From Escherichia coli (GTDB taxonomy: Bacteria; Pseudomonadota; Gammaproteobacteria; Enterobacterales; Enterobacteriaceae), in NCBI RefSeq assembly GCF_044324875.1, contig NZ_CP172185.1: a DNA stretch of 64,000 nucleotides; one strand, 5' to 3'. Shown here one piece after another: positions 31,535 to 50,053 of this stretch. The notes under the pieces were generated by a model, which was not told the DNA's origin, searched no databases, and saw nothing but the letters and a program-made list of their open reading frames with translations. The position numbers and the translations under genes were made by a program. Every line of letters begins with the position of its first letter. The first letter of the stretch is position 1.

Positions 31535-32398
<864 letters not shown>

Positions 32399-32417
32399 TC
32401 TTTTTTGCCTGAAAACT

Positions 32418-32448
32418 AAAGCCTTAGCGTTCTGCGTTAAGGCTTTTT
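32418..32448 (+). terminator. Candidate intrinsic terminator after kdsA
   Basis: Imperfect stem GCCTTAGCG / CGTTAAGGC followed by TTTTTT. Confidence 0.55.
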
Positions 32449-32459
32449 TCATGGGGGCC

Positions 32460-32994
32460 GGATACAAAAAGGGCCGCAGGCTGTTACCCCTGCGGCCGGT
32501 TTCGGGCGCATATTGCCATCACGGCAGCCTGACGCCCGTTTTCACCTTACTTCCGGTTACGCCACCAGCTGACAATCACTGCGGTAATAATCCCCGCCAG
32601 GATCGGTGCCGCCAGGTCGTGCCAGAAAATCATGGCAAACTGCGCGAGCGTCATATAGCCGCCTTGTTGTAATGACAACAATTTGCGGCTATTCTTGAAT
32701 TGTTCTGGTTCAAGATTAGCCCCCGTTCTGTTGTCAGGTTGTACCTCTCAACGTGCGGGGGTTTTCTCTTTCCAGCAACCAATGCCACCAGGGATAAAGC
32801 CCCCGCAACATTGCGCCTCACCGGATAACGCCGGCTTGGTGTGGATACTACGACTCAATTCATCTTCACTTCATCCCTGAAATGTTTGCAATGAAGAGTG
32901 CATTCCGGTTTTTCAACAGCTGTTACAGTCGTTTCATGAGTGCTCTGAATGATGCTTCCAGCTCGGGTTGCCAATATTTACTTGTGGAAGAGAT
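32460..32994. repeat. Long direct repeat unit 1 (Ldr/Rdl type I toxin-antitoxin module)
   Basis: A ~535-bp unit repeated nearly identically at ~32995-33530 (e.g. AAAAAGGGCCGCAGGCTGTTACCCCTGCGGCCGGTTTCGGGCGCATATTGCC at 32461 and 32996). Each unit contains a 35-codon ldr ORF on the minus strand. Confidence 0.85.
32547..32654 (-). CDS. ldr: Ldr-family small toxic membrane peptide (35 aa)
   Basis: Reverse-strand ORF MTLAQFAMIFWHDLAAPILAGIITAVIVSWWRNRK, recognised as an Ldr toxin; too short for the ORF track. Confidence 0.8.
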   Translation of the reverse strand: MTLAQFAMIFWHDLAAPILAGIITAVIVSWWRNRK

Positions 32995-33530
32995 AAAGAC
33001 AAAAAGGGCCGCAGGCTGTTACCCCTGCGGCCGGTTTCGGGCGCATATTGCCATCACGGCAGCCTGACGCCCGTTTTCACCTTACTTCCGGTTACGCCAC
33101 CAGCTGACAATCGCTGCGGTAATAATTCCCGCCAGGATCGGTGCTGCCAGGTCGTGCCAGAAAATCATGGCAAACTGCGCGAGCGTCATATAGCCGCCTT
33201 GTTGTAATGACAACATTTTGCGGCTATTCTTGAAGTGTCTGGTTTCAAGATTAGCCCCCGTTTTGTTGTCAGGTTTTACCTCTCAACGTGCGGGGGTTTT
33301 CTCTTTCCAGCAACCAATGCCACCAGGGATAAAGCCCCCGCAACATTGCGCCTCACCGGATAACGCCGGCTTGGTGTGGATACTACGTCTCAATTCATCT
33401 TCACTTCATCCCTGAAATGTTTGCAATAAAGAGTACATTCCGGCTTTTCAACAGCTGTTGCAGTGGTTTCGTGCAGGTTCTGGTACAGGCTCGCAATTCT
33501 GATTAACAACCTGTTCAGGTAGTATGAAGA
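32995..33530. repeat. Long direct repeat unit 2 (Ldr/Rdl type I toxin-antitoxin module)
   Basis: Second copy of the ~535-bp unit; a handful of substitutions relative to unit 1. Confidence 0.85.
33082..33189 (-). CDS. ldr: Ldr-family small toxic membrane peptide (35 aa), second copy
   Basis: Reverse-strand ORF MTLAQFAMIFWHDLAAPILAGIITAAIVSWWRNRK; differs from copy 1 by one residue (V to A). Confidence 0.8.
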   Translation of the reverse strand: MTLAQFAMIFWHDLAAPILAGIITAAIVSWWRNRK

Positions 33531-33593: not shown

Positions 33594-34694
33594 TCAGGCA
33601 AATATCGTCATCAAATAGGCGGCAAACAGTGCCAGATGCGCTGCGCCATTGAGCACGTTAGTACGTCCGGTGGAGAAGGAGATATGGCACAGCACTAAAG
33701 AGGCCACCATCACCACCATTTCTGGCGCACCAAGTGCAAACTGCAATTCGTTACCCGTCATAAAGGCAATTAGCGTGACGACAGGTACGGTAAGCGAAAT
33801 GGTTGCTAACACTGAACCAAAGAACAGATTCATCGCGCGCTGGACCTGGTTGTTCAACACTGCTTTTAACGCACCTAAACCTTCCGGCGACAGAATCAAC
33901 AGAGCCACCAGGAAGCCAGTAAAGGCGACAGGGGCATTCATGCTGTCGAGCAATGTCTCCAGCGGTCTGGCGTTCATTTTGGTCACCGCAATAACGGCAA
34001 TCAGATGGACAATCAACCAGATAGCATGCCACAGGCTGCTATGGGCAGACGGTTTACCGTGGTGCGGGTCGTCATCATCACTGTCATCTTCGTGCTCGTA
34101 GACAAATAAACTTTGATGCGTTTTGGTCTGGATCAGCAAAAATACGCCATACATTGCCGCAGAAATTAATGCTACCAGTAACGCCTGACCGGTTGAAAAA
34201 TTCGCCACAGGCAGAGCCATTGGAAATACCAGTACGATTATCGCCAGGGGGAACAGCGCAATTAAATACTGCTTGATACCAAACAGATTCATATATTGGG
34301 TGGCAAACTTGCGTCCGCCCAACAATAATGAAAAGCCAACCAGCCCACCGGTAACAATCATAATGATTGAATAGAGCGTATCACGCATTAGCGTTGGTGC
34401 GGCGTCGCCGGTTGCCATTAAAGCTGAAATCAAACTGACTTCAAGAATAACCACTGAAAGGCTAAGAATAAGCGAACCGTAAGGTTCTCCCAGGCGATGG
34501 GCTAATACGTCCGCATGACGGACAACACTAAAGGCGCTACTTAAAATACCAATAAGAGCAAGAAGATTGATGCCAATGACCACTGGTAGTGTCTGGCTGC
34601 TTCCCCACAGGAACAGCACTACCAGCGCCAGAACCGGGAAAATAAGCGAAGTCTCCTTGTGGCGGGTTTTTACCGCCTCTTGAGCATTTGACAT
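33594..34694 (-). CDS. chaA: Ca2+/H+ (Na+/H+) antiporter
   Basis: ORF 33594..34781; the ATG at 34694 gives the 366-aa MSNAQEAVKTRHKETSLIFPVLALVVLFLWG… with an acidic loop (EHEDDSDDDDPHH). Confidence 0.92.
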   Translation of the reverse strand: MSNAQEAVKTRHKETSLIFPVLALVVLFLWGSSQTLPVVIGINLLALIGILSSAFSVVRHADVLAHRLGEPYGSLILSLSVVILEVSLISALMATGDAAPTLMRDTLYSIIMIVTGGLVGFSLLLGGRKFATQYMNLFGIKQYLIALFPLAIIVLVFPMALPVANFSTGQALLVALISAAMYGVFLLIQTKTHQSLFVYEHEDDSDDDDPHHGKPSAHSSLWHAIWLIVHLIAVIAVTKMNARPLETLLDSMNAPVAFTGFLVALLILSPEGLGALKAVLNNQVQRAMNLFFGSVLATISLTVPVVTLIAFMTGNELQFALGAPEMVVMVASLVLCHISFSTGRTNVLNGAAHLALFAAYLMTIFA

Positions 34695-49294: not shown

Positions 49295-49430
49295 ATGGGC
49301 ACGGTACGGGGTGAGTTGTCGGATGCGCTTCGCTTATCCGAACAACAGGGAAGGATATTGTAGGTCCGGTAAACGCGGTGCCATTGGGCAGAATTAGCTC
49401 GGAGTAACAGGTTTTGAGTATTTACAGGAA

Positions 49431-49964
49431 GTGATGGTGGTTGGGGAAGGATTATTCAGCGCTGCGCGCTTCACCCTTCGGGTCGTTGCCTGCGGCAACG
49501 CTCTCTCGCTGGCGCTCGAGTCGAACCTTGGTCGAAGCTTCTCATCCTTCCCCGCTTGGGCAGAATATTTAATTACGGATTCGTTTGAGAGTTCAGGGAC
49601 TTTTGAAAGTGATGGTGGTGGGGGAAGGATTACTCAGCGCTGCGCGCTTCGCCCTTCGGGTCGTTGCCTGCGGCAACGCTCTCTCGCTGGCGCTCGAGTC
49701 GAGCCTTGGTCGAAGCTTCTCATCCTTCCCCGCTTGGGCAGAATATTTAATTACGGATTCGTTTGAGAGTTCAGGGACTTTTGAAAGTGATGGTGGTGGG
49801 GGAAGGATTACTCAGCGCTGCGCGCTTCGCCCTTCGGGTCGTTGCCTGCGGCAACGCTCTCTCGCTGGCGCTCGAGTCGAGCCTTGGTCGAAGCTTCTCA
49901 TCCTTCCCCGCTTGGGCAGAATATTTAATTACGGATTCGTTTGAGAGTTCAGGGACTTTTGAAA
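49431..49964 (-). repeat. Three tandem 178-bp repeats downstream of tRNA-Tyr (rtT-type units)
   Basis: Units begin at 49431, 49609 and 49787 (exact 178-bp period); units 2 and 3 are identical, unit 1 has a few substitutions. Each begins with a copy of the tRNA-Tyr 3' end (TGGTGGTGGGGGAAGGATT). Confidence 0.85.
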
Positions 49965-49968
49965 GTGA

Positions 49969-50053
<85 letters not shown>

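What the first reader, a model, noticed from the sequence alone, without database searches (positions are those of the whole stretch)
32455..33530. Two tandem Ldr/Rdl type I toxin-antitoxin repeats
Two near-identical ~535-bp units follow kdsA, each encoding a 35-aa Ldr toxin on the minus strand; the two toxins differ by a single V/A substitution. From memory the K-12 reference has three tandem copies at this locus. Copy number here would reflect unequal recombination, and long perfect repeats are also assembly-collapse hotspots. The plus-strand ORFs in the track across these repeats are out-of-frame or antisense artefacts.
Basis: partly seen in the sequence, partly recalled or inferred. Interest (0 to 1): 0.4.

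Follow-up and report, generated by a model that had tools for sequence, protein, structure and literature searches.

The report
Two tandem Ldr/Rdl toxin-antitoxin repeats
Between kdsA and chaA this E. coli sequence carries two copies of the well-known Ldr/Rdl small-toxin and antisense-RNA module, where strain K-12 has three. That is a common natural copy-number variant, so the finding is correct but ordinary.

Summary
Window 32464-32935 and 32999-33470 are direct repeats with a period of 535 bp. They are 96.8% identical (13 mismatches, 2 indels, longest exact run 114 nt), so they are not perfect repeats.

Each unit has an intact 35-aa Ldr toxin ORF on the minus strand (Pfam PF13940, E about 2e-24). 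The two peptides differ only at residue 26 (V versus A). Each unit also has a 66-nt Rdl antisense RNA on the plus strand (Rfam RF01813, 86 and 92 bits). These RNAs are 100% identical to K-12 rdlA and rdlC.

K-12 has three units (A, B, C). The window has a pure A-type unit and a pure C-type unit.

In a systematic sample of 60 complete E. coli genomes, 17 had one copy, 16 had two, and 26 had three (two of those 26 also carry an IS element). One could not be resolved. All 40 closest relatives, judged by flanking sequence alone, have two copies. Single-copy alleles are A-left/C-right chimeras, which is the signature of unequal crossover.

Assembly collapse is therefore unlikely, but it cannot be excluded without reads. 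The plus-strand ORFs look like artefacts.

This is already known and of low interest. Side results are a predicted 3'UTR-to-start-site fold-back in the ldr mRNA and a UUG-initiated leader frame lying under the Rdl 5' tail.

The parts
31544..32398 (+). kdsA (left flank)
   Evidence: 284-aa ORF. The syntenic gene is annotated kdsA in K-12 and SC418.
32464..32998 (.). LDR unit 1 (A-type), one full 535-bp period
   Evidence: Repeat family D1. 98.9% identical to K-12 LDR-A and A-type at 15 of the 17 sites that distinguish K-12 LDR-A from LDR-C.
32999..33470 (.). LDR unit 2 (C-type), homologous core only; no terminal spacer
   Evidence: BLAST self-match 601-1072 versus 66-537 of the intergenic region. 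99.3% identical to K-12 LDR-C.
32547..32654 (-). ldr-1, 35-aa toxin MTLAQFAMIFWHDLAAPILAGIITAVIVSWWRNRK (coordinates include the stop)
   Evidence: ORF lies within 32547..32681. Pfam PF13940, 85.3 bits against a cut-off of 27. PDB 5LBJ LdrD, E=7e-11. The same V26 peptide is annotated in SC418 as WP_000170956.1.
33082..33189 (-). ldr-2, 35-aa toxin identical to K-12 LdrA/LdrC (A26)
   Evidence: Pfam PF13940, 86 bits.
32702..32767 (+). rdl-1 antisense RNA (antitoxin)
   Evidence: Rfam RF01813, 86.3 bits against a gathering score of 50. 67/67 identical to K-12 rdlA. Stem-loop of -26.7 kcal/mol, z = -4.6.
33237..33302 (+). rdl-2 antisense RNA (antitoxin)
   Evidence: Rfam RF01813, 91.8 bits. 68/68 identical to K-12 rdlC. 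Fold z = -5.1.
32667..32695 (+). Inferred rdl-1 promoter: TTGTAA, 17-nt spacer, TATTCT; the RNA starts 7 nt downstream
   Evidence: Sequence inspection. Conserved in K-12 A/B/C/D. Scores 8 of 12, below the scan's threshold of 9, so the scan did not list it. Not experimentally mapped here.
33202..33230 (+). Inferred rdl-2 promoter (same hexamers)
32845..32850 (-). Inferred ldr-1 promoter -10 box TAGTAT
   Evidence: GTAG[A/T]AT is invariant across 12 units from 5 genera, while the sequence upstream of it is not conserved. Coordinates. Inference.
33380..33385 (-). Inferred ldr-2 promoter -10 box TAGTAT
32466..32840 (-). Predicted ldr-1 mRNA (~373 nt: ~185-nt 5'UTR, ORF, 3'UTR, terminator)
   Evidence: Runs from the inferred -10 box to the terminator. 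Folds at -161.7 kcal/mol, z = -5.8.
33001..33375 (-). Predicted ldr-2 mRNA
32466..32497 (-). ldr-1 intrinsic terminator (9-bp GC stem followed by a T run)
   Evidence: Terminator scan. Conserved, with one pair changed on both sides (363/374).
33001..33032 (-). ldr-2 intrinsic terminator
32505..32538 (-). 3'UTR segment predicted to pair with the ldr-1 ribosome-binding site and start codon (32645-32679) and with the 5' GGCGCA
   Evidence: RNAalifold consensus. 96% of cells are paired, against 33-52% when the partner columns are slid. Two pairs show a change on both sides. Prediction only.
33040..33073 (-). The same 3'UTR anti-start-site segment in unit 2 (pairs with 33180-33214)
32651..32713 (-). 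Candidate leader ORF (ldrX-like) in unit 1: UUG start under the Rdl 5' tail, 20 codons, UGA overlapping the ldr AUG (AUGA)
   Evidence: The frame is open up to the ldr start in all 14 distinct leaders. Translation was not tested.
33186..33248 (-). Candidate leader ORF in unit 2
   Evidence: Listed (20 aa, TTG start)..
32734..32811 (-). 25-codon upstream ORF (GAGG ribosome-binding site + AUG) in the ldr-1 5'UTR; probably conserved as RNA structure
   Evidence: AUG in 10 of 12 sequences, GUG in Kluyvera, ACG in C. sedlakii. The G-run and C-run stem shows matched 1-nt deletions in Kluyvera.
33269..33346 (-). The same upstream ORF in unit 2
33594..34694 (-). chaA (right flank)
   Evidence: ORF. 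A 1101-nt chaA is annotated in syntenic genomes.

Best explanation
These are two autonomous Ldr/Rdl type I toxin-antitoxin modules, orthologous to K-12 LDR-A and LDR-C. They sit in the conserved kdsA-chaA intergenic region of an E. coli chromosome.

Each unit has two transcripts:
- On the minus strand, an mRNA of about 373 nt with a long (~185-nt) 5'UTR. It encodes a 35-aa inner-membrane peptide.
- On the plus strand, a 66-nt Rdl RNA that is perfectly complementary to the middle of that 5'UTR. It lies 48 nt upstream of the start codon and does not overlap it.

What the literature establishes for K-12:
- Overproduced LdrD and LdrA kill or arrest cells, with an ATP drop and nucleoid condensation.
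- RdlD blocks LdrD toxicity.
- The ldrD/rdlD duplex is cleaved by RNase III.

What is inferred here about regulation:
- The full-length mRNA folds back so that its 3'UTR pairs with the ribosome-binding site and AUG. This keeps it inert, as with hok.
- A short UUG-initiated leader frame starts under the single-stranded 5' tail of Rdl and runs up to the ldr start. Its translation would open the start site.
- Rdl pairing would block that leader and trigger RNase III decay.

Copy number at this locus (1, 2 or 3) varies between lineages through unequal homologous recombination between units. Two copies is the normal state of this window's lineage.
For: Identity of the modules:
- Pfam Ldr_toxin matches both peptides.
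- Rfam rdlD matches twice, in the whole-window scan as well.
- The Rdl copies are 100% identical to K-12 rdlA and rdlC.
- Synteny matches K-12 ldrABC.
- RefSeq annotates two 'Ldr family' toxins at the same place in SC418 and other strains.
- The solved LdrD structure 5LBJ matches at E=7e-11.

Intactness:
- All 40 units examined keep a 35-aa ORF.
- Terminators are present.
- The promoter hexamers are conserved.

Copy number:
- A flank-only query sampled evenly down the ranking gave 17 one-copy, 16 two-copy and 25 three-copy genomes. One further genome has three copies plus IS150.
- The span-based counts agreed with annotation in 10 loci.
- All 40 of the 40 nearest relatives span 5195-5196 bp, which means two copies.

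Recombination:
- Units cluster by position.
- Single-copy alleles are A-left/C-right chimeras.

Regulation:
- The consensus fold pairs the 3'UTR with the start site. 96% of cells are paired, against 33-52% in slid controls.
- The single-sequence fold has z = -5.8.
- The UUG frame is open to the ldr start in all 14 distinct leaders.

Literature: PMC4147584, PMC8309996, PMC7373196, PMC7472228.
Against: - Nothing here measures expression or toxicity of these two copies.
- The physiological role of chromosomal Ldr modules is unknown, and no deletion phenotype has been reported (PMC7472228).
- The fold-back rests on only two pairs with changes on both sides, in 12 related sequences.
- The open leader frame is statistically weak. 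Two of the three frames are open across the conserved middle segment, and there are few independent indel events.
- The UUG and G-run are also constrained by the Rdl hairpin itself.
- Within E. coli the ldr ORF shows no clear codon-position bias: 8 of 13 variable codons change the amino acid.
- Whether the ancestor had two or three copies is not resolved.
Confidence: 0.93

Rival explanations
1. The isolate really has three or more units, as K-12 does, and the assembler collapsed the tandem array to two.
For: K-12 and about 44% of sampled complete genomes have three units. The same window also lacks one 119-bp tRNA-Tyr-plus-spacer unit that its closest complete relative SC418 has. That could hint at collapse of tandem repeats in this assembly.
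Against: - All 40 nearest relatives by flank-only similarity, all complete genomes, have exactly two units.
- The units differ at 13 sites plus 2 indels, and the longest exact run is 114 nt.
- Unit 1 is pure A-type and unit 2 pure C-type, with no chimeric or B-type segment.
- SC418 has the same two units, differing by one base in total.
Confidence: 0.04
2. The units are decaying, non-functional relics of a toxin-antitoxin system, so copy number is neutral debris.
For: No phenotype is known for deleting Ldr systems. Amino-acid polymorphism is relatively high within E. coli. Units are lost, duplicated and hit by IS elements in other strains.
Against: - All 40 units keep an intact 35-aa ORF with the PxxxG motif and the W/charged C-terminal signature.
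- The 5'UTR, Rdl, promoter boxes, 3'UTR and terminator are conserved across five genera, more strongly than the peptide itself.
- The identical K-12 rdlA and rdlC sequences are annotated RNA genes.
- ldrD/rdlD transcripts are detected in K-12.
Confidence: 0.06
3. The plus-strand ORFs across the repeats (for example 32451-32672 at 73 aa, 32683-32880 at 65 aa, and 32968-33207 at 79 aa) are real protein genes.
For: They are open reading frames of 61-79 aa present in both units.
Against: - They match no Pfam family.
- None is annotated in any of the RefSeq loci fetched.
- The 73-aa frame carries an in-frame stop in another strain's unit, and 12 of its 16 variable codons change the amino acid.
- They run antisense to the ldr ORF and the mRNA.
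Confidence: 0.01

Closest known systems
E. coli K-12 LDR-A/B/C (ldrA-rdlA, ldrB-rdlB, ldrC-rdlC) between kdsA and chaA
   Same: Same locus, same orientation and same 535-bp period. Window Rdl-1 equals rdlA and Rdl-2 equals rdlC, base for base. Ldr-2 equals LdrA/LdrC. The terminators and promoter boxes are the same.
   Different: There are two units instead of three, with no B-type unit. Ldr-1 carries V26, an allele shared with SC418 and H105. Unit 1 alone has A instead of T at 32681, which removes an upstream in-frame AUG found in the other 24 units compared.
ldrD/rdlD (LDR-D), the experimentally characterised member; LdrD NMR structure 5LBJ
   Same: Same architecture. The 5'UTR block and the Rdl hairpin are nearly identical. 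The peptide aligns over its full length.
   Different: It sits at a different locus (bcsG-yhjV) as a single copy. The peptide has diverged, with 19 of 35 residues identical in the alignment. In LDR-D the UUG leader frame is in-frame with ldrD, rather than ending at AUGA.
hok/mok/sok of plasmid R1
   Same: A stable toxin mRNA with a long 5'UTR. The antisense RNA lies upstream of the toxin start site. A leader ORF has been proposed. A fold-back of the 3' region onto the 5'/start region is predicted here. There is a weak Rfam sok hit on the ldr 5'UTR.
   Different: The toxin family is unrelated. The Rfam sok score is 32 bits against a gathering score of 59, so this is not a member. Neither 3' processing nor leader translation has been shown for ldr.
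Fst/RNAII (par of pAD1) and the Fst/Ldr superfamily
   Same: The peptide signature is shared: a transmembrane helix with PxxxG, a conserved Trp, and a charged C-terminus. There is a weak NCBIfam Fst hit, E=0.01, below the cut-off (PMC2887945; PMC7472228).
   Different: In Fst systems the antisense RNA overlaps the 3' end of the mRNA. In Ldr systems it overlaps the 5'UTR.

Membership tests
Ldr/Rdl type I toxin-antitoxin (LDR repeat) | A toxin of about 35 aa that matches the Ldr_toxin profile above its curated threshold | tested here: met
   PF13940 scores 85.3 and 86.0 bits against a cut-off of 27, over the full length 1-35.
Ldr/Rdl type I toxin-antitoxin (LDR repeat) | A cis-encoded antisense Rdl RNA on the opposite strand, overlapping the 5'UTR but not the ORF or ribosome-binding site | tested here: met
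   RF01813 scores 86.3 and 91.8 bits against a gathering score of 50. Each RNA starts 48 nt upstream of the ldr AUG. The sequences are identical to rdlA and rdlC.
Ldr/Rdl type I toxin-antitoxin (LDR repeat) | A repeat unit of about 530 bp at the kdsA-chaA locus, in tandem | tested here: met
   Period of 535 bp and flanks of kdsA and chaA.
Ldr/Rdl type I toxin-antitoxin (LDR repeat) | Fst/Ldr peptide signature: a hydrophobic helix with PxxxG, a conserved Trp, and a charged C-terminus | tested here: met
   The sequence shows P17-ILA-G21, W30 and W31, and RNRK at the C-terminus. The motif definition comes from PMC7472228.
Ldr/Rdl type I toxin-antitoxin (LDR repeat) | The peptide is toxic when overproduced, and toxicity is neutralised by the cognate Rdl | not testable with these tools
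   Shown in the literature for LdrD/RdlD and for LdrA. Ldr-2 is identical to LdrA. Ldr-1 (V26) is untested.
Ldr/Rdl type I toxin-antitoxin (LDR repeat) | A stable toxin mRNA and an unstable antisense RNA | not testable with these tools
   This needs half-life measurements.
hok/sok-type regulation | The sequence and structure match the Rfam sok / hok-leader model | tested here: not met
   RF01794 scores 32.2 and 30.5 bits against a gathering score of 59.
hok/sok-type regulation | A leader ORF whose start lies under the antisense RNA and which overlaps the toxin start site | tested here: inconclusive
   The UUG frame is open to the ldr start in all 14 distinct leaders, but this is statistically weak and the start codon is non-AUG. 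Two other candidate upstream ORFs are not conserved.
hok/sok-type regulation | Fold-back pairing of the mRNA 3' region with the 5'/start region | tested here: inconclusive
   Predicted by RNAalifold. 96% of cells are paired against 33-52% in slid controls, but only 2 pairs change on both sides.

The most novel reading that the evidence does not exclude
The comparison made here may explain how Rdl represses Ldr, which the 2021 review PMC8309996 still calls undeciphered.
- The ldr mRNA would be held inert by a conserved 3'UTR fold-back onto its ribosome-binding site and AUG.
- It would be opened by translation of a UUG-initiated leader frame whose start lies exactly under the single-stranded 5' tail of Rdl.
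- Rdl-1 and Rdl-2 differ mainly in that tail, which could give each tandem unit its own private antitoxin.

This concerns the whole family, not this window in particular. Parts of it may already appear in papers not held here (Kawano 2012; Gerdes and Wagner 2007).
Probability: 0.25. Interest if true: 0.3.

Novelty: already known. Interest (0 to 1): 0.1.

Why it matters
It matters little by itself. The locus, the toxin, the antisense RNA and the tandem arrangement have been described since 2002, and RefSeq already annotates the same two-copy arrangement in many complete genomes.

Three practical points follow:
- Two copies should not be flagged as an assembly error in this lineage.
- Copy number at kdsA-chaA (1, 2 or 3) is a lineage marker produced by unequal crossover. 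Recognisable A/C chimeras are left behind in single-copy strains.
- Plus-strand ORF calls across LDR units should be suppressed, while the rdl RNA genes should be annotated.

The family-wide alignment also gives testable predictions for the still unresolved mechanism of Rdl action.

Tried and rejected
- Tandem Repeats Finder found nothing because its longest period is 500 and the unit is 535 bp.
- The promoter scan found nothing. The inferred rdl promoter scores 8 of 12 hexamer matches, below the scan's threshold of 9.
- My single genome-contig scan used a 15-nt pattern, which is too short for 298 Gb. Rfam confirmed rdlD in 8 of the 9 plausible enterobacterial loci I re-scanned: E. albertii, Escherichia sp. 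E1V33, Pseudocitrobacter, C. sedlakii, Kluyvera and E. coli E69.
- Kawano 2012 and Fozo 2008 are not held, and the T1TAdb supplement is not held. I therefore could not verify the published definition of ldrX.
- Candidate leader ORFs rejected as not conserved:
  - The GTG-initiated frame (56 aa in unit 1) is interrupted by a stop in most units, and its GTG is lost in Pseudocitrobacter.
  - The 25-codon AUG upstream ORF has ACG in C. sedlakii and is better explained as RNA structure.
- The upstream in-frame AUG, which would give a 44-aa Ldr, is absent from unit 1 and from most non-E. coli units.
- The Rfam rnk_leader hit at 32340-32455 has E=0.32 and is treated as chance.
- The count (2,833 genomes covering at least 80% of the two-copy query) was not used as a copy-number estimate, because one-copy genomes can also satisfy it through joined pieces.

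Full report
**Observation**

The region between kdsA (31544-32398, +) and chaA (33594-34694, -) contains a direct repeat whose copies start at 32464 and 32999, 535 bp apart. BLAST of the intergenic region against itself aligns 473 nt at 96.8% identity, with 13 mismatches and 2 gap openings. The longest exact shared run is 114 nt.

The last ~60 bp of unit 1 (32936-32998) is an inter-unit spacer with no counterpart after unit 2. So the units are similar but not perfect, and the finding's coordinates (32455-33530) are essentially right.

Tandem Repeats Finder missed the repeat only because its period limit is 500.

**What the units are**

Each unit carries an intact 35-aa ORF on the minus strand, at 32547-32654 and 33082-33189. 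The peptides differ only at residue 26, V versus A.
- Both match Pfam Ldr_toxin (PF13940) at about 85 bits against a cut-off of 27.
- They align end to end with the solved LdrD peptide 5LBJ.

On the plus strand, Rfam finds rdlD (RF01813) at 32702-32767 (86 bits) and 33237-33302 (92 bits), against a gathering score of 50.
- Both fold into the expected hairpin with a single-stranded 5' tail.
- They are base-for-base identical to K-12 rdlA and rdlC.

Intrinsic terminators follow each ldr ORF, at 32497-32466 and 33032-33001.

By alignment with K-12 and with units from four other genera, I infer two promoters:
- an rdl promoter, TTGTAA-17-TATTCT, at 32667-32695 and 33202-33230;
- an ldr -10 box, TAGTAT, at 32850-32845 and 33385-33380. 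Upstream of this box conservation stops.

These promoters and the ~373-nt mRNA extent are inferences, not mapped ends.

**Plus-strand ORFs**

The plus-strand ORFs of 61-79 aa have no family match. They are not annotated in any RefSeq locus I fetched. The 73-aa frame has an in-frame stop in another strain's unit and mostly amino-acid-changing variation.

**Copy number**

K-12 MG1655 has three units at this locus.

To count units in other genomes without bias, I queried 2 kb of left flank joined to 2 kb of right flank and read the span of the joined match.
- In 60 complete genomes taken at even steps down the ranking, 17 had one unit. 16 had two, two of them with an IS200C insertion. 25 had three, one of them with ISVsa5. 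Two were unresolved.
- One of the unresolved genomes proved to have three units plus IS150.
- The span-based calls agreed with RefSeq annotation in all ten loci fetched.
- The 40 genomes most similar to the window in the flanks alone (99.0-99.6%) all span 5195-5196 bp, which means exactly two units.
- The closest, SC418, has the same two units with a single base difference.

**Origin of the variation**

Units group by position, not by genome. Window unit 1 is closest to K-12 LDR-A (98.9%) and unit 2 to LDR-C (99.3%).

At the 17 sites that distinguish K-12 A from C, unit 1 is A-type at 15 and unit 2 is C-type at 14. The few exceptions are sites private to a single K-12 unit or unique to the window. 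Neither unit carries a run of the other unit's type or any B-type segment.

The single-copy alleles of Z1323, O145:H28 and ATCC 25922 are A-type on the left and C-type on the right. That is the reciprocal product expected from unequal crossover between the first and last units.

Other two-copy arrays have other compositions. MRE162 is B+C, and ECO2R is A plus an A/C chimera. Gains and losses have therefore happened repeatedly.

Whether this window's A+C array is ancestral, or arose by clean loss of B, cannot be decided.

**Assembly collapse**

This cannot be tested without reads, but the evidence above makes it unlikely.

One caution applies. 17 kb away, the window has a single tRNA-Tyr followed by three RtT repeats. 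K-12 and SC418 both have two tRNA-Tyr genes there, and the window lacks exactly one 119-bp unit relative to SC418. The arrangement of one tRNA with three RtT repeats does exist in another complete genome. It may be real, but it deserves a check against reads.

**How it most likely works**

Published work on K-12 shows the following:
- LdrD and LdrA are toxic inner-membrane peptides, causing an ATP drop, nucleoid condensation and growth arrest.
- RdlD neutralises LdrD.
- The ldrD/rdlD duplex is an RNase III substrate.

Reviews state that the mechanism of repression is unresolved. A mok-like leader ORF, ldrX, has been proposed.

I aligned 12 ldr mRNAs from E. coli, Escherichia sp., Pseudocitrobacter, Kluyvera and Citrobacter.
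- The consensus fold pairs the 3'UTR (window 32505-32538) with the ribosome-binding site, the AUG and the hairpin just upstream (32645-32679). It also pairs with a 5' GGCGCA.
- 96% of cells are paired, against 33-52% when the partners are slid. Only two pairs show changes on both sides.
- The window's own mRNA folds with z = -5.8.

An invariant UUG within GGGGGCUAAUCUUG lies under the single-stranded 5' tail of Rdl. It opens a frame that reaches the ldr start in all 14 distinct leaders from 40 units, although indels place it in all three frames relative to ldr. This fits the ldrX idea but is weak statistically.

Two other upstream ORFs are not conserved.

Rdl-1 and Rdl-2 differ mainly in that 5' tail. 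This might give unit-specific control, but that is speculation.

**Comparison and verdict**

This is a member of the Ldr/Rdl family by every feature that can be tested on sequence. It resembles hok/sok in layout but is not a member of that family: the Rfam sok score is 32 bits against a gathering score of 59.

Everything about the finding itself is already known, so interest is low.

Noticed in passing
window 49429-50053: There is one tRNA-Tyr (49969-50053, minus strand) followed by three 178-bp RtT repeats. K-12 and the closest complete relative SC418 both have two tRNA-Tyr genes here. The window lacks exactly one 119-bp tRNA-plus-spacer unit relative to SC418. This is either a real recombination between the two identical tRNA genes or a collapse of a short tandem repeat. 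The one-tRNA, three-RtT form exists colinearly in strain 06-00048.
   Followed up: partly
L014 4264-5633; hits H34, H35 and H46: The LDR array is a repeated target of insertion sequences in other E. coli strains. IS150 sits inside the third unit of MSI001. IS200C sits in two two-copy strains. ISVsa5 sits in a three-copy strain.
   Followed up: partly
window 32652-32804 and 33187-33339 (minus strand): The ldr 5'UTR gives a sub-threshold match to the Rfam 'sok' model (32 and 30 bits against a gathering score of 59; E about 1e-4). This echoes the T1TAdb remark that some Ldr loci classify as Hok/Sok by RNA features.
   Followed up: no
window 32681: Unit 1 alone has A where the other 24 units compared have T. 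The change removes an upstream in-frame AUG (AAAAUG becomes AAAUUG). It lies in the spacer of the inferred rdl-1 promoter. Even SC418 unit 1 has T.
   Followed up: partly
alignment A2 columns 37 and 82 (window 32803 and 32760 equivalents): In Kluyvera the upstream G-run and the C-run of the ldr 5'UTR have each lost one base (GGGGG to GGGG and CCCCC to CCCC), while the downstream G-run keeps five. This looks like a compensatory pair of deletions. It favours pairing of the upstream G-run with the C-run in the mRNA.
   Followed up: partly
window 32340-32455: There is a weak Rfam rnk_leader match (25.6 bits, E=0.32) over the end of kdsA and its terminator hairpin (about 32418-32449). It is probably chance.
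   Followed up: no
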